A stretch of DNA of 34,648 bases from Thermoplasmata archaeon (lineage in GTDB: Archaea; Thermoplasmatota; DAOVMN01): positions 1-34,648 of the forward strand of contig DAOVMN010000001.1 of assembly GCA_030630685.1 (NCBI GenBank). Reading direction: 5' to 3'. This document shows positions 3,932 to 34,179 of this stretch, in pieces. Every line of letters begins with the position of its first letter. The first letter of the stretch is position 1. Both the position numbers and the translations under genes were made by a program. Under the pieces are notes generated by a model that saw only the letters and a program-made list of their open reading frames with translations, searched no databases and was not told where the DNA came from.

Positions 3932-4099
3932 ATGGGAAACATCGATAAGATAATGGCACTCTTCAAGCCCAAGAAGACGACTGAGGAAACCTCCGAGGCA
4001 CCTGAGCCCCTCACACCCAAAAAAGAGGAAGAAGAAACCTCTGAAGCACCTGAGGATATCAAGCCAAAAGAAGAGGAAGAAGAGTCCTCTGAGGAATAA
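3932..4099 (+). CDS. Small acidic repeat protein (hypothetical)
   Basis: GGGAG lies 7 nt upstream of ATG 3932 and a TATA-like ttatatat lies at 3862-3869. The protein has internal EETSEAPE repeats. Because it is low-complexity, the antisense frame is also open. Confidence 0.3.
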   Translation: MGNIDKIMALFKPKKTTEETSEAPEPLTPKKEEEETSEAPEDIKPKEEEEESSEE

Positions 4100-5618: not shown

Positions 5619-6272
5619 ATGTCAATATTAACCGATGTTGAAATCCTTGAAGCCATTGAGCAAAAAGAAATAAAGATTGAGCCTTTTGATGATCCTGGCA
5701 TGTTAGTAGGTGTTACTTATGACTTAAGAGTCGGAGGAGAATGTTATATTGGAGGCCAAGAGGATAAGATTTATTTATCTGATGATCCCTCAGGCAAACA
5801 TAGTTTGCACATCCCTCCAAGGCAATTCGCAATTCTCGAAACCTATGAATCCATAACATTTGGACCCTCGATAGCAGGGAGATTTGGTTTAATCTCTAAG
5901 TATTCAAAAAAAGGGTTAGTTTTCCTCAGTGGCCCAGTTGTTGATCCCACATTTTCAGGCTCTATTAAAATTGGTATATATAATACTAGTTCCCATGACA
6001 TATATCTCTCATTTAAGGAACCTATTTGTACAATCGTTTTCTATAAAGTTGGTCAAATTAAAAATCTGCCAAAAAATCTAGATAATTTAGGTCGAGGAAT
6101 AAAAAGTGATGATGTGGATTATCTTAAAACAAATTATGGGTTGAGTGAATTTGAGAAAAGGCTATCAAAGATTGAAAATAACTTTATACTAATGAAAAAG
6201 ATTGGATGGATAGTATTAGCAGCTCTTATAAGTGGATTTATTGGTTTTCTTTTTGGGATGTTCAGTTGGTGA
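5619..6272 (+). CDS. dCTP deaminase/dUTPase-fold (Dcd-like) protein with a C-terminal transmembrane helix
   Basis: N-terminus MSILTDVEILEAIEQKEIKIEPF and VVDPTFSGSIKIGIYN align by eye to Dcd IDPGWSGCIVLEFYN. The C-terminal IGWIVLAALISGFIGFLFGMFSW is hydrophobic. The stop lies 4 nt before the thyX ATG. Confidence 0.6.
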   Translation: MSILTDVEILEAIEQKEIKIEPFDDPGMLVGVTYDLRVGGECYIGGQEDKIYLSDDPSGKHSLHIPPRQFAILETYESITFGPSIAGRFGLISKYSKKGLVFLSGPVVDPTFSGSIKIGIYNTSSHDIYLSFKEPICTIVFYKVGQIKNLPKNLDNLGRGIKSDDVDYLKTNYGLSEFEKRLSKIENNFILMKKIGWIVLAALISGFIGFLFGMFSW

Positions 6273-6276
6273 TATC

Positions 6277-7146
6277 ATGAAAGTTGCTTTAATTAAATAT
6301 ACGCCAGATCCTGAGATATTATGTGCATTGGCTGCAAAATCATGCCACACGAAAGCCTTTCCAAAGGTTACAAAAAAAGAGTCTACTGACCTTTTAACGC
6401 AGATTATTAATCCAAAATCGATTTATATTGTTGATGAAAATCAGTCATCTCTTTATGATTTTTATGAGAATGGTGGAAGGGAGAAAATTAGTGAGGAATC
6501 GAGTGAAGAGATTATTCGCTTTGTAAGCACCGCAGGGCACCATAGCGTGTTAGAACATAGTTCATTCACGTTTGTAATTGAAGGCATTTCAAGAGCATGT
6601 AGCCACCAAATGGTTAGGCACAGAATTGCCTCTTTTACACAACAAAGTCAGAGATATGTAAATTTAAAAACCTTTGATTACATAATTCCCCCGAAAATAG
6701 CTAATAACACTGAGGCTATGACTGAGTATAAAAAAATTATTAAGAAGATAAAAGGGGGGTATAAAGATCTATTAAAGTTAGGAATTCCAAAAGAGGACAT
6801 TCGTTATCTTTTACCTAATGCCACTTCAACAAACCTCATTATGACTATGAACGCTCGTTCTTTACTTCATTTTTTTAGTTTGAGATGCTGTATGAGGGCT
6901 CAGTGGGAGGTTAGAGAGGTTGCTAACAAGATGCTCCAACAAGTGAAAAATGTTTCTCCAATCATATTTGCTAATGCTGGGGCTCCATGTGAAAGAGGCT
7001 TCTGCCCAGAGGGCGATCTAACGTGCGGGCGTTTAGAAAAAATAAAAAGAAAAGAAAAGCTCAGGTTAGACGAGATAAAGGACGAGGAATCTTACAGTAG
7101 TCCCACAGAAAGTCAAGGAAAAAACCAAGCTGAAGTCCAAGTTTGA
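6277..7146 (+). CDS. thyX: Flavin-dependent thymidylate synthase ThyX (cassette copy, full length)
   Basis: ThyX signature RHRIASFTQQSQRY, plus GHHSVLEH and [20 protein letters not shown]. Confidence 0.85.
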   Translation: MKVALIKYTPDPEILCALAAKSCHTKAFPKVTKKESTDLLTQIINPKSIYIVDENQSSLYDFYENGGREKISEESSEEIIRFVSTAGHHSVLEHSSFTFVIEGISRACSHQMVRHRIASFTQQSQRYVNLKTFDYIIPPKIANNTEAMTEYKKIIKKIKGGYKDLLKLGIPKEDIRYLLPNATSTNLIMTMNARSLLHFFSLRCCMRAQWEVREVANKMLQQVKNVSPIIFANAGAPCERGFCPEGDLTCGRLEKIKRKEKLRLDEIKDEESYSSPTESQGKNQAEVQV

Positions 7147-7192: not shown

Positions 7193-7519
7193 TTACTCGA
7201 GGCTGGGGTAGTCAATGAGGACGCCAGGTACGTTCTCCCGAATGCGGCCAAGAACAACATCACCATCACCATGAACGCGCGGGAGCTATTGCACTTCTTT
7301 TCCCTACGCTGCTGCAATAGGGCACAGTGGGAGATCCGGGAGCTCGCCCTGAAGATGCTTGAGAAGGTAAAGAAGGTGGCCCCAAAGATCTTCGAGAAGG
7401 CCGGTGCGGCGTGTGTGGTCCTGGGTTATTGTCCGGAAACAGAAAGCTGCGGTAGAGCCCCTCCGCTGAAGGAGATTATAGGGACGCACAGGAAAGGCAA
7501 GGCCAAGAGAGAGGATTAA
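7193..7519 (+). pseudogene. thyX: 3' fragment of a second, normal-GC thyX (lacks the N-terminal two thirds including the RHR motif)
   Basis: The frame reads [50 protein letters not shown]... This parallels residues [50 protein letters not shown] of the cassette ThyX. An in-frame stop lies at 7154-7156. Confidence 0.75.
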
Positions 7520-8127: not shown

Positions 8128-8480
8128 TTATCGTTTTCTGTAACCAAATTTCTTATCATATTTCTTATGGCCAACTATGTCTAACACAAAGGCGATGATC
8201 TCCACTGTTGATTCTCCATCGGTAAGTGTGTAAAGCATCCGCCAATAACGAGCCAATTCAACTCGAAACAGGTTTTGACCCCAAAGTTTTCAATATATTC
8301 TCTTGGGATCAATGACTTTGAAATTGGTTTTCCATAATGTGGATTTGCCTTGATCAATTCCACCTTTGTATTTATTGAGTTAAGTATTGATCTGTCTATC
8401 TTGGATTCGGAAGCATGTTCGTTCAGATATCTATAGGCTTCTTCTGCATCCACTGAGAGAATCACTCGTACCTCTCTCAT
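8128..8480 (-). pseudogene. RelE/ParE-superfamily-like toxin, interrupted by a 1-nt frameshift near 8273-8276
   Basis: The ORF 8181-8480 ends in an odd tail. Shifting frame at the A4 run restores NLFRVELARYWRMLYTLTDGESTVEIIAFVLDIVGHKKYDKKFGYRKR, with a stop at 8128-8130. It overlaps the upstream gene by 4 nt. Confidence 0.6.
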
Positions 8481-8755
8481 AACTCGAGCCCCTTTGAGAT
8501 TGCTTCTCTTAGTTTGGGATTTGGATTAAAAACCCAGGTTATCCCATCTATGGTGAAGAGTATCTTATTACTCTCTTCGAGATATCTGAGAATTGTTTTT
8601 AGCCTATTATGGTTGACTTTTTTTGGAAGCATTCTTTTCAGTTCTGCGATTGTGATTACACTCTCATCCATATTTCGTAATGTCTCTTCCACCATAATGA
8701 CCGTATTGAGTGTCGGTGAGTGCTCGTATCTGTGTATGGCTTTTGTAGATGTCAT
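8477..8755 (-). CDS. Putative antitoxin / small DNA-binding partner of the toxin
   Basis: 92 aa. The 4-nt overlap with the toxin start matches TA operon architecture. No family was recognised by eye. Confidence 0.45.
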   Translation of the reverse strand: MTSTKAIHRYEHSPTLNTVIMVEETLRNMDESVITIAELKRMLPKKVNHNRLKTILRYLEESNKILFTIDGITWVFNPNPKLREAISKGLEL

Positions 8756-8855
8756 TCTATCACTCTTTGATATTAGTTAGTAATCATTATGTATCAAACA
8801 GTATAAATAGTTATCTTTTATGAGCCCCTTATGGAAAATTGCGTATAACTCAGTT

Positions 8856-8921
8856 ATATCCGACATCGATGTCGGATATCCTTCTGATTTGGTGGTATAT
8901 CCAAAGTCCATGTCGGATATA
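8856..8921. promoter_or_regulatory. Two operator-like palindromes sharing TATATCC...GGATAT arms
   Basis: 8856-8879 ATATCCGACATCGATGTCGGATAT is a perfect 24-nt palindrome. 8895-8921 repeats TATATCC-N12-GGATATA and contains a second ATGTCGGATAT (8910-8920), 41 nt from the first. Confidence 0.4.
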
Positions 8922-9004
8922 CCTACCTTTATCTGAAGATTTTTTCTCATGTTTGGCCTCTCTTTTATTCACCATTATTCCATTTAGCTCCCGCTCGTCT
9001 TTAG

Positions 9005-9206
9005 ACATCGAAGATTTCTGAGGACCGGCTGAGTGCGAAGCCATGAGGAAGCGAAGCTTCCGATTGCCGGTTGACGCAAAGCGTCGATAAGCCATGAGGA
9101 ACGAAGTTCTGAGTGGCGGTTGAGTATGCAATACTCGATAAGCACTCGGCAAGGCGTGAAGTGCGAAGCACAGAGCACCGGTTGAGCCTGAAGGGCTCGA
9201 CAAGGC
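9005..9206 (+). repeat. Tandem short-hairpin array B (about 8 hairpins)
   Basis: Stems and loops read directly: GGAAGC-gaa-GCTTCC (9047-9061), GACGC-aaa-GCGTC (9073-9085), GAAC-gaa-GTTC (9099-9109), GAGTAT-gca-ATACTC (9122-9136), GTGC-gaa-GCAC (9161-9171), GAGCCT-gaa-GGGCTC (9184-9198). Linkers are conserved: catgag, ccgg(t/a)tga, tcga(t/c)aagg. Confidence 0.75.
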
Positions 9207-9573
9207 CCACCACGGTTCCCCTATCACGGATCATCAGTTCAAGGCCGCGGTGCGAACAGGTGTAACATTGGATTCTTAAGAGGTATTGAATAACAAATAT
9301 TTAATCTTTCTCTCTGCTTGCCCAAAACACCCAACCCAATCCCTCTTGGAGCCCCCTCTCCATGCTTTGTTCCCGCTCCCCTCGTGGGACCCTTCGCCGC
9401 ACCTTTCACTAAAATAGATACCAATCACACTCATGAGAGGCATGAAACATCACTCAGAGCCCTCGGTACGACCGCAAAGAGTACGCAAAGAAAACGACGA
9501 AATTGTGATCCTTATTCACTACATTACAGCTTTGTCCCAAAATAAACGAGGAAAAATAGAATACAGGATTAAT

Positions 9574-9612
9574 AAAAAAAAGGAGAGAGGCCGAACGGGG
9601 ATCCGAACGGCC
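9574..9612 (-). terminator. Stem-loop plus T8 run downstream of the HU gene
   Basis: On the minus strand, GGCCGTTCGGATCCCCGTTCGGCC (9612-9589) is followed by tctctcc and then TTTTTTTT (9581-9574). Confidence 0.5.
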
Positions 9613-9632
9613 TTAACGAGAGTGCAGTGATC

Positions 9633-12054: not shown

Positions 12055-12056
12055 GT

Positions 12057-12082
12057 AAAAAAAGGAGCCGCTGGGGGGAATC
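12057..12082. repeat. 26-nt duplicate of the tRNA-Thr 3' end plus flank (att-like direct repeat; partner at 12216-12241)
   Basis: aaaaaaaggagccgctggggggaatc occurs identically at 12057-12082 and 12216-12241. The second copy is part of the intact tRNA-Thr. Confidence 0.8.
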
Positions 12083-12105: not shown

Positions 12106-12156
12106 CCTTGACGAGTGCTTCGCACTCATCCGGCTCTCAGAATTTCATTCTTCATG
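12106..12156 (-). repeat. Single two-hairpin unit of the hairpin-array family, inverted orientation
   Basis: The reverse complement reads catgaa-GAAT-gaa-ATTC-tgagagccggatga-GTGC-gaa-GCAC-tcgtcaagg. This is the same linker grammar as arrays B, C and D. Confidence 0.65.
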
Positions 12157-12224
12157 CCTGCACCAAAAACCTGTGCGACCTCGCTCCACTCTGTTCCGCT
12201 CGGTCCCACTTTATTAAAAAAAGG

Positions 12225-12296
12225 AGCCGCTGGGGGGAATCGAACCCCCGACCTACGCCTTACCAAGGCGTCGCTATACCGCTAAGCCACAGCGGC
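12225..12296 (-). tRNA. tRNA-Thr (anticodon GGU)
   Basis: Hand-folded. Acceptor GCCGCTG/CAGCGGC, anticodon arm ACGCC-TTGGTAA-GGCGT, T arm GGGGG-TTCGATT-CCCCC, discriminator T. A T7 run follows on the minus strand. Confidence 0.9.
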
Positions 12297-12367
12297 TTTT
12301 GGCAGTTACCGGAAGCCCGCAAACTATGGATTGTATAAAATTGTTTTGATGGACGGAATCGAGACAT

Positions 12368-12755
12368 GGGACTATGTTATAATTTAGCGAATAAGGCACC
12401 ACCCCTTCCTTATGTGGGATAGTTTATCTCCATAAATAGAATCCTAATCAGGCGGGTCGGAACCACACGGGGGGGGGCACCGGGGAGGCATGAGGAAGCG
12501 AAGTTCCGATTGCCGGCTAAACACGAAGTGTTCGTCAAGGAAGTACTCGGCAAGGCGTGCAAACTTATTTGCGCACCGATTGAATCCGCAGGATTCGATA
12601 AGGCATTCGGAAAGCAGTTCCGAATTCCGATTGAGGGCAAAGCCCTCGATAAGGCGGTGAGAAAAAATTCAGCCAGATTGGCATATAGAATCTTGTGAGT
12701 TTCTTATTCACTATGTCACTGACCTCCTTAATCACTGACTTACAACATAGTACCC
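12368..12755. mobile_element. MITE-like non-coding element: ~29-30-nt inverted terminal repeats bracketing hairpin array C
   Basis: gggactatgttataatttagcgaataagg (12368-12396) matches the reverse complement of 12726-12755 (gggtactatgttgtaagtcagtgattaagg). No ORF lies inside. Confidence 0.45.
12489..12654 (+). repeat. Tandem short-hairpin array C (6 hairpins)
   Basis: GGAA..TTCC (12494-12507), AACAC-gaa-GTGTT (12520-12532), GCAAA-ctta-TTTGC (12559-12572), GAATCC-gca-GGATTC (12582-12596), TTCGGAA-agcag-TTCCGAA (12606-12624), GAGGGC-aaa-GCCCTC (12633-12647). It shares 30+ nt blocks with array B. Confidence 0.75.
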
Positions 12756-19846: not shown

Positions 19847-20140
19847 TTAATTCGCTTTTCTCAGATGCTCGGAAGAGATGATGGGGTGCTTGAACTTGTT
19901 ACCCACCTTCACCTCGATAATATAGGCATCCCCCTGCATACTGCTTACCATACCCGTGAGCCCATGGAACCTCTTGTGCGGCATCCCTTTGTGTATGCTG
20001 GGGTCGATGACTATGTTGACACGATTGCCCACCTCAAAACTCTGAAGTGAGTTGGTGATGCGAGATAGCCCCCGCTCCCTTGGTTTACGAGCGATAATCT
20101 TTCGTGTTCCGGCTCTCACGCCTTTTGACATTCTTACCAT
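19847..20140 (-). CDS. rpl21e: Large-subunit ribosomal protein L21e
   Basis: SKGVRAGTRK...DPSIHKGMPHKRFHGLTGMV matches the L21e signature. GAGGTG lies 6 nt upstream of ATG 20140. Confidence 0.9.
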   Translation of the reverse strand: MVRMSKGVRAGTRKIIARKPRERGLSRITNSLQSFEVGNRVNIVIDPSIHKGMPHKRFHGLTGMVSSMQGDAYIIEVKVGNKFKHPIISSEHLRKAN

Positions 20141-20211
20141 GTTGCTCACCTCATGAAGAGGTCTTCATCCTTATCGACCCCTGCGGGGTCAATCGGAGTA
20201 AGAACAAGTTC

Positions 20212-21468
20212 TTACTCGTAATGAACCGCCAGGACATCAAGGGAGGCCACTTTGCATCCGGTTCCAAGGAAGTCGGAGATGCTCGGCTGGGTTCTTCCTT
20301 CGTCTCCGTGGATCAGCTCTTTAATATATAGGCCACTCTCACCCCTAATGGTGAACGCAGCTCGCTTACCCTTCTGCAGTTCACAGTTGATATTTATAAC
20401 TTTCTTCTCTCTGATAAGGTCGCTCCTTCTGTGGGAAACCCTTGCAGGGGTACGCTGATGGATCAATGTTCCAGAGAACTTCCTTATGAGTTCATCTATT
20501 TTTTCGGGTCCTACATCATCCTCGAATTCCACCTCTGCTCTATAGGTCTTCTCCGCTTTCTCATTCTTGATGCGACTTACATTATCGCGATTGGTGTACC
20601 TCAAATTATAGATCTCCACTCTACCCGACGCAGATGTATTCACCATCTCCCGCATCCTCTCAAGGTCTAACAGGCGTCTCTTTGGGTTGGAGATCTCGAG
20701 TATAAAGGGCCTTCCGTTTCCAAGCATCCGGGCATCGATATCCTCCCTGCCCATGCCGTGAAAGAGATGCCGTGTCCCCCCTGTTTCCTTGAGAAAGGCA
20801 TCACCAATAAGCTCCTGAACACTTGTCTGGTATATCTTGCCTGTGTGGTTGCAGTATTCACATCCCCTCCCCCTGCACCTCTTACAGTTCCAGATGGTCT
20901 GGGGGATAGTTCTGTCGAACTTCAGATACCTGCCGTAGATAAAGATCGGTGCAACCTGAAGAGTGACCGTGTCAAATCGCGTATCCACCACCGCAACGAT
21001 ATCGGGCCTCTCGAAGGATGCCTCTTTCTCGAGCCTTTCGAAAACCCTGATCCCTATCTCACGGTTGAGCTCGTTCTTTATGCCTTCGGCATGACTGGCG
21101 AGTGCGAATTCCTTCTGAAGTCCGGATTCTCTTTCAAGGATCTCCTCATCAACCACACTTCCGATAAGGAACGTTTCGAATTCATGGTCGGAAAGCGCAT
21201 CCACGACAAGGTCCACGAATTTGTTCAGCTCATTAAAGAGCCCTTTGCATAAGGCGCAATCCTTCTCCTCACCGCCCGCATGAAGGAACCTTGATTGTAC
21301 ACCCTCCACCTCTCCGTATTCTTCCGTCATTGCCAGGAAGAGTTTTATCGTTCTCCCCCTCTCCTCGTCCGTGGTGCCTGTCCCAAGCCTGCCAAACTGC
21401 CTACCGAGACATCGGTCGCAGAGCTGGCGCTTGGAAAGAGCATTCACCGTATCAAACAGGGATTTCAT
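20212..21468 (-). CDS. pus10: tRNA pseudouridine synthase Pus10
   Basis: N-terminal Cys pairs (CDRCLGRQ, CALCKG) and catalytic block HGMGREDIDARMLGNGRPF. Confidence 0.85.
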   Translation of the reverse strand: MKSLFDTVNALSKRQLCDRCLGRQFGRLGTGTTDEERGRTIKLFLAMTEEYGEVEGVQSRFLHAGGEEKDCALCKGLFNELNKFVDLVVDALSDHEFETFLIGSVVDEEILERESGLQKEFALASHAEGIKNELNREIGIRVFERLEKEASFERPDIVAVVDTRFDTVTLQVAPIFIYGRYLKFDRTIPQTIWNCKRCRGRGCEYCNHTGKIYQTSVQELIGDAFLKETGGTRHLFHGMGREDIDARMLGNGRPFILEISNPKRRLLDLERMREMVNTSASGRVEIYNLRYTNRDNVSRIKNEKAEKTYRAEVEFEDDVGPEKIDELIRKFSGTLIHQRTPARVSHRRSDLIREKKVININCELQKGKRAAFTIRGESGLYIKELIHGDEGRTQPSISDFLGTGCKVASLDVLAVHYE

Positions 21469-27559: not shown

Positions 27560-27607
27560 GATTTACATTTTGCTTAAAAGAGTTTCGCCCGAGGCCTTCG
27601 GGCATTC

Positions 27608-27636
27608 GGGACTATGTTGAAAGTTAGCGATTAAAG
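27608..27636 (+). repeat. Third copy of the 29-nt GGGACTATGTT... motif
   Basis: gggactatgttgaaagttagcgattaaag is 24/29 identical to 12368-12396. It is 25/29 identical (plus a 1-nt indel) to the reverse complement of 12726-12755. Confidence 0.6.
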
Positions 27637-27650
27637 CTAAAAATTACCAG

Positions 27651-31297: not shown

Positions 31298-32683
31298 ATG
31301 TACGAAACCATCCTTTCCTTGGAAGATCGAATCATCGAGGAGACCCTGAGTGCCGGGGCAGAATACTGTGACATTCGATACGAGTCCGTGCTCGGAACGG
31401 GCCTTGAGATGAAGAACAATGAGCTCAGGGAAGTGGTCCCTGGAAGGTCGGAAGGAGCGATCCTCAGGGCGCTTTACAAGGGCTCCTGGGGTATCTATTC
31501 GTTTAATGACGAAGAGGGCCTGGGGAAGGCTCCGGAAATGGTCATTCGGTTTGCCAGGGCCGCGGGATCAGGTGACTCTGTTATTGCATCGGTGGAGGTT
31601 CTCAAGAAAAATGTCGTTTGGAGACCCAAAGTAAAGCCCGAGGATATCCCGCTTGAAGAGAAGTATTCCCTTGTGAAGGAAGTGAACAAAAGGGTCATGG
31701 AAAAGGATGGGATCGTCGGGATCACCTCTGTTTACAGTGATTCAAGGATACGCAAGCGCATCGTGACCTCCGAGGGAACCGAGGCGGGGTACGAGTTGTG
31801 CAGAGGCCATGTCCAATCCCGGATCACGGCAAAGAGGGATGGACGTATCCTTGGGTATCGCACCCGTGTGGGAGCTACCGGAGGATTCGAGATCTTTTCG
31901 AACGAGGACCCTGTGGAAAAGGCCGTGAAAGGAGCGGAAGCCGCTCTGATAATCCTTGGAGCCAAAGTTTCACCATCCGGAAGGATGACGGTGATCGCTG
32001 ACCACGACCTGACCGGAGTGTTTGCACATGAGGCCGTTGGCCATACCACAGAAGCGGATCTTGTGGTATCCGGGGAATCTGTTCTGGAGGGTAGACTGGG
32101 AGAGGTTGTTGCCTCGGAACTCGTAACCCTTGTGGACGACCCGACAATTCCTAAAGGATTCGGTTCGTTTCCGATAGATGATGAAGGCATCGAAGCCAGA
32201 AGGAAGACCCTTATCGAGAAGGGAGTGCTGAAGGATTATATCCTGGACAGGGAGACGGCTGCCAAGCTTGGACTTGTGCCCAACGGAGGGGCACGAGCAC
32301 AATCCTATGCAAACCGTCCACTGGTCCGTATGTCGAACACCATGATCGAGGGCGGGGACCTGTCCCTCGAGGAGCTGATCGAGGACATGGATTACGGGGT
32401 CTATGCCAAGGGCACCCGCGGCGGACAGGTGGACACGGTTCGGGGTTCGTTCCAGTTCAGTGCCCAGCAGGCCTTCCTCATCGAGAAAGGGGAGATAACC
32501 ATACCTCTGAGGGATGTCTCACTCTCGGGTATGACATTGGAGACCCTGAGGAACATCGATGGTGTCGGGAACGATCCTAGACTCGGGGACCCGGGATTCT
32601 GCGGTAAGGGCCAGATGGTCCCTGTCGGGGACGGTGGACCGCATATCAGGATCCGCAATGCTGTGGTTGGGGGTGGTGTATGA
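31298..32683 (+). CDS. tldD: Metalloprotease TldD
   Basis: HEAVGH metal site, with family-wide similarity. GGAGGT lies 5 nt upstream of the ATG. Confidence 0.9.
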   Translation: MYETILSLEDRIIEETLSAGAEYCDIRYESVLGTGLEMKNNELREVVPGRSEGAILRALYKGSWGIYSFNDEEGLGKAPEMVIRFARAAGSGDSVIASVEVLKKNVVWRPKVKPEDIPLEEKYSLVKEVNKRVMEKDGIVGITSVYSDSRIRKRIVTSEGTEAGYELCRGHVQSRITAKRDGRILGYRTRVGATGGFEIFSNEDPVEKAVKGAEAALIILGAKVSPSGRMTVIADHDLTGVFAHEAVGHTTEADLVVSGESVLEGRLGEVVASELVTLVDDPTIPKGFGSFPIDDEGIEARRKTLIEKGVLKDYILDRETAAKLGLVPNGGARAQSYANRPLVRMSNTMIEGGDLSLEELIEDMDYGVYAKGTRGGQVDTVRGSFQFSAQQAFLIEKGEITIPLRDVSLSGMTLETLRNIDGVGNDPRLGDPGFCGKGQMVPVGDGGPHIRIRNAVVGGGV

Positions 32684-32688
32684 AAAAA

Positions 32689-32832
32689 CATGAGGATTTA
32701 TCCGAGTGCCGGATGAACACGCATGAGGCACAAAGTGCTGAACACCGATTGAATCCGAAGGATTCGACAAGGTCGTCAAGGCCTGAAGCACGAAGTGCTG
32801 ATGGCCGGATGACCTCGAAGAGGTCGTCAAGG
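32689..32832 (+). repeat. Tandem short-hairpin array D (5 hairpins) between the tldD stop and the conserved pmbA N-terminus
   Basis: GGA-ttta-TCC (32694-32703), GCAC-aaa-GTGC (32728-32738), GAATCC-gaa-GGATTC (32751-32765), AGCAC-gaa-GTGCT (32787-32799), GACCTC-gaa-GAGGTC (32811-32825). The linkers are the same as in arrays B and C. Confidence 0.75.
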
Positions 32833-32850
32833 ACAGATGACCTCCTTGCT

Positions 32851-34179
32851 ATGGGTAAGAGTGTCCTGAGGATCGCGGAAAAGGAGGTAGATGAGGCAGA
32901 GGTGTTCATCATCTCCAGTTCTGGAACCTCGCTTTCGATCGAGAAGAATAGAATAAAATCCGTTTCCGGGGCCGGCGGAACCGGCATCGCAATACGGATC
33001 CTGAAAGACAAGAAGATGGGATTTGCATACTGTACAGCTCTCGAGGGGGTCGTGCGGGCACTTAACCTCGCGATCCAGGGTGCCTCCATAGTACCTGAGA
33101 GGCCCTTCGAGTTCCCTGCCGATGAAAACTACTACACCATCCCGGACCTTCTTGACAGAAGAGTACTGGAGCTCTCCCCGGAAGACGGAATGGAGTTCGC
33201 CTCCCGGATGATCGACTCTGCCAGGGATGCCCACAAGGATATCGATGTCACGGGCGGAGGGGTCTCCTTCGGGGAGGAGGAGGTCGTCATAATGAACACA
33301 CGCGGGCTTGAGGTTTCGGAACACCTGTCCGGTATGAGTGCATCGGTGTACACGGTTTTCAACTCGGATCACCCCACCCCTGGTTTTGAATATGACTCCT
33401 CACATCTTATCCTCAAGGATTATGACGAAATCGGCAGGAAGGCGGCAGAATTGGCTGCAAAAGGACAGAACCCGGTGAAGATCGGGAGCAAAAAGATGCC
33501 GGTCGTGCTCAGGCCGGATGCGATCTCCAGCCTTTTTGAATTCATCCTCGTGCCCGCACTTTACGGGATCAATGTGGGTAAAGGGGAATCTGTCTACACA
33601 GGGAAACTCGGCACCGAGATAGCCAGCCCGGACCTCTCGCTTGTGGATGATCCAACCATGCCGGACGGGGAGAATGCCATGAAGATGGATGATGAGGGCG
33701 TCCCATCCAGGCGCATCGAACTCATCAGGAACGGCGTGCTCAAGGACTTTCTCTACACGATAAAAACAGGTGTAGAGTTCGATCACCCTTCCACTTCCAG
33801 CGGCCTCAGGGGTGGCTACACCTCTCCGGTATCCACCTCTGGCAGGAACATCATTCTAAAAGGGGACACCGAGGAGGAGGACACCCTCATTTCCGAGATC
33901 AAGGAAGGGCTTCTCATCCACGAGCTCATGGGAGCGCATACCTCCAACCCTGCTTCCGGGGATTTCTCTGTTACCGGCTCCATCCTTTTCAGGATCGAGA
34001 ATGGTGAGGTCACCGGTCCGGTCTCGCAGGCGATGCTCAGCGGTAATCTTCCCGAGTACCTGAAGAATGTTTCGGGGTTGGGGAATAATTATCGCAATCT
34101 CTCTGGAGGGCTCACCGCTGTTGGGTTCTACATGCCTTCGGTCAGGATAGAGGGGGTTCGGGTTACCGGGGAGAAGTAG
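32851..34179 (+). CDS. pmbA: TldE/PmbA metalloprotease partner
   Basis: Family similarity begins around LLAMGKSVLRIAEKEVDEAEVFI. The open frame extends to ATG 32680 through the hairpin array, so the true start is unresolved. Confidence 0.85.
   Translation: MGKSVLRIAEKEVDEAEVFIISSSGTSLSIEKNRIKSVSGAGGTGIAIRILKDKKMGFAYCTALEGVVRALNLAIQGASIVPERPFEFPADENYYTIPDLLDRRVLELSPEDGMEFASRMIDSARDAHKDIDVTGGGVSFGEEEVVIMNTRGLEVSEHLSGMSASVYTVFNSDHPTPGFEYDSSHLILKDYDEIGRKAAELAAKGQNPVKIGSKKMPVVLRPDAISSLFEFILVPALYGINVGKGESVYTGKLGTEIASPDLSLVDDPTMPDGENAMKMDDEGVPSRRIELIRNGVLKDFLYTIKTGVEFDHPSTSSGLRGGYTSPVSTSGRNIILKGDTEEEDTLISEIKEGLLIHELMGAHTSNPASGDFSVTGSILFRIENGEVTGPVSQAMLSGNLPEYLKNVSGLGNNYRNLSGGLTAVGFYMPSVRIEGVRVTGEK

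What the first reader, a model, noticed from the sequence alone, without database searches (positions are those of the whole stretch)
9005..9206. Family of tandem mini-hairpin arrays with conserved linkers and co-varying stems
Four loci carry about 20 short hairpins in total: 9005-9206, 12489-12654, 32689-32832, and the inverted unit at 12106-12156. The hairpins follow one grammar with two alternating classes. Class I is CATGAG-[4-5 bp stem]-GAA-[stem]-(T/C)GA. Class II is CCGG(T/A)TGA-[4-5 bp stem]-GAA/GCA/AAA-[stem]-TCGA(T/C)AAGG. The linkers are nearly invariant. The stems differ from copy to copy yet stay perfectly complementary: CGC/GCG, GTAT/ATAC, ATCC/GGAT, GGGC/GCCC, CCTC/GAGG, GTGC/GCAC, ACAC/GTGT, GAAC/GTTC, GAAGC/GCTTC. 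That is the signature of selection for structure, or of a mechanism that generates palindromes. When class I units are folded by hand, the conserved GA dinucleotides on each side oppose each other as tandem G.A/A.G pairs, closed by outer CC/GG pairs. The loops are mainly GNA triloops, and several cores are GCGAAGC, a heptamer known to form an exceptionally stable DNA mini-hairpin. The structures could therefore act as ssDNA as well as RNA. Arrays B and C also share longer blocks (catgaggaagcgaag(c)ttccgattgccgg; actcggcaaggcgtg). The reading frame is not conserved between copies, so the arrays are not protein-coding. I do not recognise this as a described archaeal repeat or ncRNA family.
Basis: partly seen in the sequence, partly recalled or inferred. 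Interest (0 to 1): 0.8.

Follow-up and report, generated by a model that had tools for sequence, protein, structure and literature searches.

The report
Double-hairpin repeat arrays in an archaeon
An uncultured deep-sea archaeon carries a previously undescribed family of short DNA repeats, built from two alternating hairpin types strung into arrays at gene borders, that look like an archaeal counterpart of bacterial REP/BIME elements and mitochondrial double-hairpin elements; how they spread and what they do are unknown.

Summary
The window, from a Thermoplasmata MAG of a South China Sea cold seep, holds 10 class II and at least 7 class I hairpins. Both classes covary strongly. In class II, 97% of cells pair and 8 of 11 pairs show double changes. 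A U.G wobble (class II) and a tandem G.A/A.G (class I) are invariant. About 89% of loops are closed by C-G and about 77% are GNA. The fold is strand-specific: z is -3.6 to -8.2 on the given strand and about 0 on the complement. Rfam has no match even at E<=10.

Six relatives with the same synteny lack the elements. In them tldD and pmbA overlap by 4 bases in five and by 1 in the sixth; here a stop-free 144-nt array follows pmbA codon 2, so the arrays are insertions. The same family occurs on two Loki's Castle sediment contigs and shares derived junctions.

Best reading: a lineage-specific, REP/BIME-like or double-hairpin-element-like interspersed repeat, constrained as a folded single strand and carried in sense orientation in transcripts. 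RNA versus ssDNA action, and the mobilising enzyme, are unresolved.

The parts
9003..9205 (+). Array A. It starts with a degenerate class I remnant (9003-9025) and a truncated class II (9026-9042). Then come class I 9040-9068, class II 9067-9092, class I 9091-9117 and class II 9116-9143. A linker block ACTCGGCAAGG follows, then class I 9153-9179 and class II 9178-9205.
   Evidence: Sequence, hairpins, CM hits. RNA MFE z = -6.2 on this strand against -0.7 on the reverse complement. Identical in a second assembly.
12472..12654 (+). Array B. It starts with CCGGGGAGG, then class I 12487-12514 and a degenerate class II 12513-12540. A block AAGTACTCGGCAAGG follows, then a variant hairpin 12557-12574 and class II 12576-12603. 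It ends with a variant 8-bp hairpin 12605-12625 and class II 12627-12654.
   Evidence: Blocks shared with array A: families D5 and D20.
12106..12158 (-). A single class I + class II dimer on the minus strand. It lies 65-117 nt downstream of tRNA-Thr and in the same orientation, and is followed directly by TTTTT.
   Evidence: (terminator-like hit). Its 3' class I part and class II 5' half are 88% identical to the start of array A (I3).
20169..20196 (-). A solitary class II hairpin in the 62-nt spacer between pus10 (20212-21468, -) and rpl21e (19847-20149, -).
   Evidence: 42 bits. Gene identities.
32687..32832 (+). Array C. It contains a class I-like hairpin at about 32689-32712, a truncated class II at about 32708-32721, class I 32720-32746 and class II 32745-32772. 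These are followed by a stray TCGTCAAGG, class I 32780-32806 and class II 32805-32832.
   Evidence: It is a 144-nt insertion relative to the relatives aligned.
31298..32683 (+). tldD. Its stop codon overlaps the ATG at 32680 (ATGA).
   Evidence: Pfam families listed. Five relatives keep the same 4-base overlap with pmbA and the sixth (L125) overlaps by 1 base; none has any insert.
32680..34179 (+). pmbA reading frame. It keeps the ancestral ATG and codon 2, then 48 array-derived codons, then ...TDDLLAMGK, which is homologous to the relatives' N-termini. An alternative in-frame ATG lies at about 32809, inside the last class II hairpin.
12223..12296 (-). tRNA-Thr(GGT). The minus-strand dimer lies downstream of it.
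12056..12082 (.). A second copy of a 27-nt exact direct repeat; the other copy is at 12215-12241 and covers the tRNA 3' end plus the T-run. The two copies bracket the 132-nt segment that holds the minus-strand dimer.
   Evidence: family D9.

Best explanation
The hairpins are a lineage-specific family of non-autonomous, hairpin-forming interspersed repeats. The basic module is a double hairpin of about 51 nt.
- Class I: an outer helix of 4-5 bp, a tandem G.A/A.G, and a 4-6-bp variable helix capped by C(GNA)G.
- Class II: CC/GG, a G/AA internal loop, and a 9-bp helix with an invariant U.G and a 3-bp variable core capped by C(GNA)G.

Shown:
- Modules have been inserted at gene borders and, once, into the 5' end of a gene.
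- Different arrays share modules and derived junctions.
- Sequence constraint acts on the fold of one strand only.

Inferred:
- Modules are multiplied locally into direct tandem arrays.
- A trans-acting protein recognises the conserved foot and cap of each hairpin on a folded single strand. That recognition drives spread or retention, while the core only has to pair.
- Because the elements sit in sense orientation within transcription units, they are co-transcribed. They then form very stable stem-loops at cistron borders, with REP-like side effects on mRNA 3'-end stability or translational coupling.
- Whether the strand recognised for propagation is ssDNA (favoured by the C(GNA)G caps) or RNA (favoured by the sense orientation) is not decided.
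For: Insertion. Six relatives with the same TFB-aminotransferase-tldD-pmbA synteny have tldD and pmbA overlapping, by 4 bases in five and by 1 base in L125. They show no class I or class II hit in about 97 kb. The window instead has a 144-nt array after pmbA codon 2.

Dispersed family with shared descent:
- There are five loci in 34.6 kb.
- A further array is joined to array C in one assembly.
- Two independent assemblies break inside array C.
- The same family sits on two Loki's Castle sediment contigs.
- Array A and the L182 array share the same truncated junction CCGGMTGAGTGCGRAGC|CATGA. Array B and L160 share the start CCGGGRAGG|CATGAGG. L160 and L182 share 35 identical nt.

Structural constraint. 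Covariation is shown. The invariant features are U.G in 16/16 class II units and G.A/A.G in class I.

Strand specificity. RNA-parameter z-scores are -3.6 to -8.2 on the given strand and +1.4 to -2.3 on the complement. G.U pairs (41 counted) far outnumber A.C oppositions (2 in the 16-sequence class II alignment).

Sense orientation holds in every context that can be read:
- array C inside the tldD-pmbA operon;
- the 20169 unit between pus10 and rpl21e;
- the dimer after tRNA-Thr;
- the L160 array starting at the stop codon of the upstream gene;
- array B downstream of a promoter-like block that also precedes a glycosyltransferase gene.

Caps. About 33 of 37 apical pairs are C-G and about 28 of 37 loops are GNA (plus hand correction). 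This is the unusually stable DNA mini-hairpin motif, whose RNA version is much weaker (PMC13037366).
Against: - No transposase or other dedicated protein was found next to any array. The only one nearby is a truncated HTH/DDE gene on L160.
- The pmbA insertion has no terminal inverted repeats and no target-site duplication.
- There is no within-population presence/absence polymorphism. Two assemblies of arrays A and B are identical.
- Genome-wide copy number is unknown, because only about 50 kb of element-bearing sequence could be obtained.
- Core stems differ in nearly every copy. That is unlike recently amplified REP or MITE families and fits long-term functional constraint at least as well.
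- The orientation argument rests on five loci. Arrays A and L182 have no co-oriented gene.
Confidence: 0.5

Rival explanations
1. The hairpins are purely functional cis-acting RNA modules that are not mobile. In this reading they are protein-binding or nuclease-blocking stem-loops, selected at cistron borders to set mRNA stability, processing or translational coupling. They would have arisen by local duplication and been recruited at each locus.
For: - Sense orientation holds in all readable contexts.
- An invariant U.G wobble and tandem G.A are classic RNA recognition features.
- The fold is far better than shuffles with RNA parameters on the sense strand only.
- The units sit at stop and start codons.
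Against: - The elements are absent from six syntenic relatives, so they are not conserved regulators.
- Unrelated loci, and two distant sites, share derived junctions and near-identical modules, which implies copying between loci.
- The flanking genes have no common function: tldD/pmbA, rpl21e, tRNA-Thr and a DUF433/PIN pair.
- C(GNA)G triloops are not the caps usually selected in stable RNA hairpins (PMC13037366).
Confidence: 0.22
2. The long arrays at 9005 and 12489, and the one on L182, are stand-alone non-coding RNA genes. They would act as multivalent scaffolds or sponges that titrate an RNA-binding protein, by analogy with CsrB/RsmZ. The short units elsewhere would be that protein's regulatory targets.
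For: - Arrays A and L182 have no co-oriented gene.
- TATA-like boxes lie 30-90 nt upstream of arrays A and B, and a conserved promoter-like block precedes array B.
- The arrays offer many repeated, identical recognition features.
Against: - There is no conserved promoter or terminator across arrays. L182 has a GC-rich upstream region, and most arrays have no T-run after them.
- No expression data are available.
- No Rfam-like conservation exists outside this lineage.
- Array C lies inside an ORF.
Confidence: 0.12
3. The elements are double-stranded DNA sites: palindromic operators, origin or partition repeats, or nucleoid-protein binding arrays.
For: - The units are palindromic with conserved outer half-sites (TTGA...TCGA).
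- An HU gene lies 430 nt from array A.
Against: - The half-sites are invariantly asymmetric: T.G in class II and G.A/A.G in class I.
- The central bases vary yet stay complementary, which a duplex site would not require.
- There is a strong strand asymmetry in foldability.
- Both orientations occur within 34 kb and follow gene direction.
- No origin-associated genes are nearby.
Confidence: 0.04
4. The arrays are translated peptide repeats: 17-residue units such as RDARSAERRLNSKDSTR, or remnants of a coding repeat.
For: - One + frame of the canonical 51-nt dimer is stop-free.
- Array C is open and in frame with pmbA for 48 codons.
- Two of the three + frames of array B are open.
Against: - Array A has stops in all + frames, and unit lengths shift the frame between copies.
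- Substitutions are compensatory for base pairing, not synonymous.
- A search of 5.8 billion proteins with all open translations found nothing.
Confidence: 0.03

Closest known systems
REP sequences and BIMEs of bacteria (repetitive extragenic palindromes; GTAG- and CGTC-tagged superfamilies; mobilised by RAYT transposases)
   Same: Both are extragenic imperfect palindromes of 25-30 nt that cluster into composite arrays of two alternating hairpin types with short conserved linkers. Both sit between cistrons and after genes, are co-transcribed, and carry conserved mismatches that mark one strand (PMC2817692, PMC3733652, PMC3479197).
   Different: - Units here are all in direct (head-to-tail) orientation, not alternating.
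- There is no unpaired GTAG or CGTC tag.
- The core stem sequence differs in almost every copy, whereas REP stems are conserved within a genome.
- Class I has an invariant tandem G.A.
- The host is an archaeon, and no RAYT has been found.
Mitochondrial double-hairpin elements and repetitive hairpin-forming elements (Allomyces and other fungi, sponges; yeast GC clusters)
   Same: Both are short mobile elements made of two adjacent hairpins. Both occur singly or in tandem as multi-hairpin structures, in intergenic regions and occasionally inside genes without being removed from the transcript (PMC2800124 and references therein; Paquin et al. 2000 cited from memory).
   Different: Those elements are organellar and have no sequence similarity to this family. 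Their stems are conserved while the loops vary, which is the reverse of the pattern here.
Rickettsia palindromic elements (RPE) and mycobacterial MIRUs
   Same: RPEs insert in frame into protein-coding genes. MIRUs are 46-100-nt tandem units between operon genes whose small ORFs overlap the neighbouring stop and start codons. Array C is a 144-nt, stop-free, in-frame insert placed exactly at an ATGA stop/start overlap. The comparison with RPE and MIRU rests on my own knowledge; RPEs are also mentioned in PMC3733652.
   Different: There is no sequence relation. MIRUs are not defined by covarying hairpins. Only one of the five loci here is in a gene.
DNA mini-hairpins d(GCGNAGC) / d(cGNAg) at single-strand initiation sites and phage N4 virion RNA polymerase promoters
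   Same: Both have a C-G-closed GNA triloop cap on a short stem. In those systems the cap is read by a primase or polymerase on extruded single-stranded DNA (PMC13037366, PMC3201870).
   Different: Those are single sites with defined enzymes. Here there are tandem arrays of 2-12 hairpins with additional conserved feet, and no priming or promoter role has been shown.
Integron attC sites
   Same: Both keep structure rather than sequence: a conserved foot, a variable but paired centre, and irregularities that define the active strand of a folded single strand (own knowledge).
   Different: There are no R/L boxes, no cassettes between sites and no integrase nearby. The units are also much shorter.

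Membership tests
REP/BIME | Imperfect palindromes of 20-40 nt, extragenic and repeated | tested here: met
   The hairpins are 27-28 nt. There are 17 CM-supported units in 34.6 kb. All lie outside annotated genes except array C.
REP/BIME | Stem sequence conserved among copies in one genome | tested here: not met
   Core pairs take 3-5 different pair types across copies.
REP/BIME | Unpaired GTAG or CGTC tag at one end (PMC3733652) | tested here: not met
   There is no GTAG. CGTC occurs only in the ATGA...TCGTC variant, and there it is base-paired.
REP/BIME | Alternating orientation of successive REPs in a BIME | tested here: not met
   All units of an array hit the models on the same strand.
REP/BIME | Cognate RAYT (Y1 HUH) transposase in the genome | not testable with these tools
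   Only the window and short contigs of this organism could be read. The window has no such gene.
MITE | Terminal inverted repeats and target-site duplication | tested here: not met
   No TIR flanks any array. The pmbA insertion has no duplicated flank. The only flanking direct repeat is the 27-nt tRNA-derived one around the minus-strand dimer (D9).
Any Rfam 15 family | Covariance-model match | tested here: not met
   Only two tRNAs reach gathering score. No array hit appears even at E<=10.
Box C/D sRNA / kink-turn | RUGAUGA and CUGA boxes forming tandem G.A next to a 3-nt bulge, with 10-12-nt guides | tested here: not met
   Class I has GUGAUG...CUGA-like boxes and an invariant tandem G.A. 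However, the flanking strands pair symmetrically (columns 1-5 with 23-27 covary), so there is no bulge. The 'guide' is a self-paired 4-6-bp stem.
CRISPR array | Identical repeats separated by unique spacers of similar length | tested here: not met
   The hairpins abut and overlap by 2 nt, there are no spacers, and TRF reports no array there.
Double-hairpin / repetitive hairpin-forming elements (organellar) | Two adjacent hairpins as the repeated unit, dispersed and in tandem, tolerated in transcripts | tested here: inconclusive
   The architecture matches, and insertion in a gene is seen. But that family is defined descriptively, is organellar, and has conserved stems (PMC2800124).

The most novel reading that the evidence does not exclude
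This may be a new kind of archaeal element in which only the fold and a few non-canonical contacts are inherited: an invariant U.G, a tandem G.A and a C(GNA)G cap. In that reading a dedicated, still unknown protein reads these features on a folded single strand. That protein would be either a new hairpin-specific ssDNA transposition or priming system acting on the non-template strand, or a multivalent RNA scaffold or sponge system. The variable but paired cores would be kept different so that neighbouring hairpins in an array do not mispair or recombine.
Probability: 0.3. Interest if true: 0.75.

Novelty: new variant of a known kind. Interest (0 to 1): 0.55.

Why it matters
Interspersed hairpin repeats are well studied in bacteria and organelles, but hardly any family has been characterised in archaea, and none, to my knowledge, in uncultured Thermoplasmata.

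This family is unusually informative. Its conserved and free positions separate cleanly, so it predicts exactly what a partner protein must read. It shows a dated insertion into an operon junction that preserved translational coupling. It also breaks short-read assemblies, which matters for the quality of MAGs from sediments.

If a dedicated enzyme or binding protein exists, the elements would open a route to a new single-strand nucleic-acid recognition system in archaea.

Tried and rejected
- **Genome-collection scan.** The Methanosphaerula, Acidobacteriia and Thermoplasmata hits were read and are coding sequence without hairpins. That scan was wasted.
- **Viral contigs.** There were three hits, all chance and all in coding sequence.
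- **Spurious-ORF search.** I queried the protein collection with all open translations of the arrays, hoping for wrongly called ORFs over other arrays. Nothing was found.
- **L182 neighbour search.** I looked for the TPR protein next to the L182 array to obtain a longer contig. Nothing was found.
- **Wasted look-ups.** Exact look-ups of the first gene of the window and of the 499-aa pmbA ORF returned nothing on record.
- **Restriction-site idea.** The linkers contain CCGG, TCGA and CATG, but these tetranucleotides are not avoided elsewhere in the window (observed/expected 1.01, 1.28 and 0.94). Rejected.
- **Kink-turn or box C/D, hammerhead core and SECIS-like AUGA/GA readings.** The symmetric covarying outer helix, the wrong spacing and the absence of Rfam hits argue against all three.
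- **Assembly artefact.** Two assemblies agree on arrays A and B. Rejected.
- **Significance of the open frame in array C.** The significance is weak on its own, because one frame of the canonical unit is intrinsically stop-free.

Full report
**Source and context**

Exact-protein look-ups place the window in a Thermoplasmata archaeon MAG, GCA_023132975.1 (sample SAMN18200500), from the Site-F cold seep in the South China Sea (PMC9357000). The genes are ordinary archaeal housekeeping genes. They include TFB, Pus10, L21e, Rpo4, FtsZ, ThyX, an HU-type protein, TldD/PmbA, tRNA-Val and tRNA-Thr.

I ran a test that does not presuppose pairing. The linker-only pattern CCTTRTCGA-N(9-15)-TCAANCGG occurs 5 times in the window against 0.00 expected from shuffles. 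All five centres are perfectly self-complementary. In contrast, 54 of the 56 metagenome contigs that match a flanks-plus-GNA-loop pattern have non-complementary centres. In the model search, such pattern-only matches score 20-30 bits, against 35-45 bits for most real units.

**Anatomy of the two hairpin classes**

Class II is 28 nt: CC-G-[R U U G A N N N C]-GNA-[G N N N U C G A Y]-AA-GG.
- On 16 units, 97.2% of cells pair, against 78.3% after shuffling (0/500 shuffles reach it).
- 8 of 11 pairs show changes on both sides.
- Sliding the partner by one column drops pairing to 40-44%.
- The U.G at columns 6-22 is present in 16 of 16 units.
- The two foot variants GA...TC and AT...AT covary.

Class I is 27 nt: GG-C-R-U-[G A]-N-[4-6 bp]-GNA-[..]-N-[G A]-R-Y-G-CC.
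- G6A7 and G21A22 are invariant and face each other.
- The outer helix covaries, with A-U, G-C and C-G at columns 4-24.
- 87% of cells pair, against 73.5% shuffled, and 6 of 10 pairs show double changes.

RNAalifold recovers both structures without being given them. Neighbouring units overlap by the two G or C residues, so the GG of ...AAGG can close either the preceding class II or the following class I (coordinates).

About 33 of 37 apical pairs are C-G and about 28 of 37 loops are GNA, mostly GAA and GCA (with six mis-registered class I units corrected by hand). Only three base pairs per hairpin are therefore really free.

One caveat applies to these statistics. The units are related and were partly chosen because they fold, so the shuffle statistics overstate independence. 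The linker-only test does not have this problem.

**Inventory**

Covariance models with filters off find 10 class II and 7 class I units in the window and nothing else at E<0.01. The window also has two variant hairpins in array B, one class I-like unit, and truncated class II units at the starts of arrays A and C.

**Strand specificity**

With RNA parameters the arrays fold far better than dinucleotide shuffles on the given strand (z = -3.6 to -8.2). On the complement they do not (z = +1.4 to -2.3). With DNA parameters the difference is smaller but points the same way. G.U pairs are common, whereas A.C oppositions are rare. This rules out a duplex-DNA palindrome as the selected object.

**Not a known RNA family**

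Rfam 15 gives only the two tRNAs at gathering score. On the arrays it gives nothing even at E<=10, in the window or in the related contigs. The class I motif resembles box C/D (GUGAUG...CUGA). But the flanks pair symmetrically, so there is no kink-turn bulge, and the would-be guide is a self-paired stem.

**The arrays are insertions**

I compared six relatives with PmbA 59-69% identical and the same TFB-aminotransferase-tldD-pmbA order. In them the two genes overlap by ATGA, or by one base in L125. They have no class I or class II hit in about 97 kb.

In the window, ATGAA is followed by exactly 144 nt of array and then by ACAGATGAC..., whose translation (TDDLLAMGK) aligns with the relatives' N-termini. 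The insert is 48 codons long and stop-free, so the ancestral coupled start can still be used. An in-frame ATG also lies within the last hairpin. Because one frame of the canonical 51-nt dimer is intrinsically stop-free, I treat this as compatible with purifying selection on an insertion. It is not evidence that the arrays are coding.

**Dispersal and shared descent**

Two independent assemblies end inside array C. A third continues from it into a different array with an unrelated AT-rich flank. Repeats do this to short-read assemblers.

A metagenome scan found two contigs of the Loki's Castle sediment data set SDBU01 that carry arrays of 9 and 12 hairpins of the same two classes.
- Array A and the L182 array begin with the same truncated class II fused to class I (CCGGMTGAGTGCGRAGC|CATGA).
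- Array B and the L160 array begin with CCGGGRAGG|CATGAGG.
- The last dimer of A and of L160 differ by a few bases.
- A variant hairpin (GYGTGCAAACTTRTTTGCGC) is shared by B and L182.
- L160 and L182 share 35 identical bases.
- The two data sets prefer different but compensated foot pairs: A-U against G-C in both classes.

This is the pattern of a repeat family copied between loci under a structural constraint.

**Position and orientation**

- The 20169 unit lies between pus10 and rpl21e.
- Array C lies in the tldD-pmbA operon.
- The minus-strand dimer follows tRNA-Thr and is followed by TTTTT.
- The L160 array starts at the stop codon of a zinc-ribbon gene.
- All of the above are in sense orientation.
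- Array B lies about 90 nt downstream of a 70-nt block that recurs in front of a glycosyltransferase gene and looks like a bidirectional promoter.
- Arrays A and L182 have no co-oriented gene. The HU transcript next to A probably ends at its own hairpin and T-run near 9570-9620.

Five of five readable contexts are in sense orientation, which is suggestive (about 3% by chance) but rests on a small sample.

**Interpretation**

The best-supported reading is a lineage-specific interspersed hairpin repeat. It is functionally closest to REP/BIME elements, and architecturally closest to mitochondrial double-hairpin elements. It fails the REP membership tests I could run: there is no GTAG or CGTC tag, the units are in direct rather than alternating orientation, and the stems are variable. 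I therefore file it as a new variant of that kind, not as a member.

The clean split between conserved foot and cap and a free, paired core argues that a protein reads the folded single strand.
- The C(GNA)G caps favour ssDNA. This motif gives exceptionally stable DNA mini-hairpins, and its RNA form is much weaker. Known natural readers are primases and the N4 polymerase (PMC13037366).
- The sense orientation, the U.G and the tandem G.A favour RNA.

I cannot decide between them with sequence alone. No transposase was found.

**Rivals**

The rivals, in order of weight, are non-mobile cis-acting RNA modules, stand-alone scaffold RNAs, duplex-DNA sites and peptide repeats. They are weighed in the rival-explanations section of this report.

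**Limits**

Only about 50 kb of element-bearing sequence could be obtained. All protein-based routes to more contigs of these organisms failed. Copy number, genome-wide orientation and any associated gene therefore remain unknown.

Noticed in passing
window 12056-12082 and 12215-12241: An exact 27-nt direct repeat, made of the 3' end of tRNA-Thr plus the following T-run, brackets a 132-nt segment containing the minus-strand double-hairpin unit. It looks like the att duplication left by an integrative element, now almost entirely deleted, or like a 159-nt duplication.
   Followed up: partly
window 6232-7146 and 7271-7519: The ThyX gene is followed by a second short ORF that matches only the C-terminal 38 positions of the Thy1 domain. 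This is a duplicated gene tail or the remnant of a rearrangement.
   Followed up: no
window 12331-12400 and 27570-27640: A block of about 70 nt is repeated in two divergent intergenic regions: tRNA-Thr / array B, and glutamate dehydrogenase / glycosyltransferase. It has TATA-like boxes facing both ways and is probably a shared bidirectional promoter.
   Followed up: partly
window 8852-8924: Three copies of ATATCCGACAT / ATGTCGGATAT, one forming a perfect 10-bp palindrome, lie upstream of two small unknown minus-strand genes (8181-8755). The arrangement looks like an operator.
   Followed up: no
window 3971-4094: A 48-nt tandem repeat (2.6 copies, 77% matches) lies in the spacer upstream of tRNA-Val.
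   Followed up: no
window 9473-9483: An 11-nt tandem duplication (CGCAAAGAGTA) is present in the window but absent from the ENA assembly of the same sample. It is the only indel in 16 kb between the two assemblies, and the hairpin arrays themselves are identical.
   Followed up: yes
whole window: CTAG is strongly under-represented: 9 observed against 47 expected. CCGG, TCGA and CATG are not.
   Followed up: yes
L120 11640-12129: The AT-rich flank of the extra array carries several copies of a motif of about 25 nt, TGTAGCCyATAyAACCC...CAGGTTA. It is another repeat of unknown nature.
   Followed up: no
L160 1088-1765 and 367-999: A truncated HTH/DDE-type transposase ORF and an unknown 210-aa ORF lie next to the Loki's Castle array, in the opposite orientation. 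Nothing shows a link to the hairpins.
   Followed up: partly
L182 180-240: A GC-rich run of GTTCGTAG-like short repeats lies immediately upstream of the L182 array.
   Followed up: no
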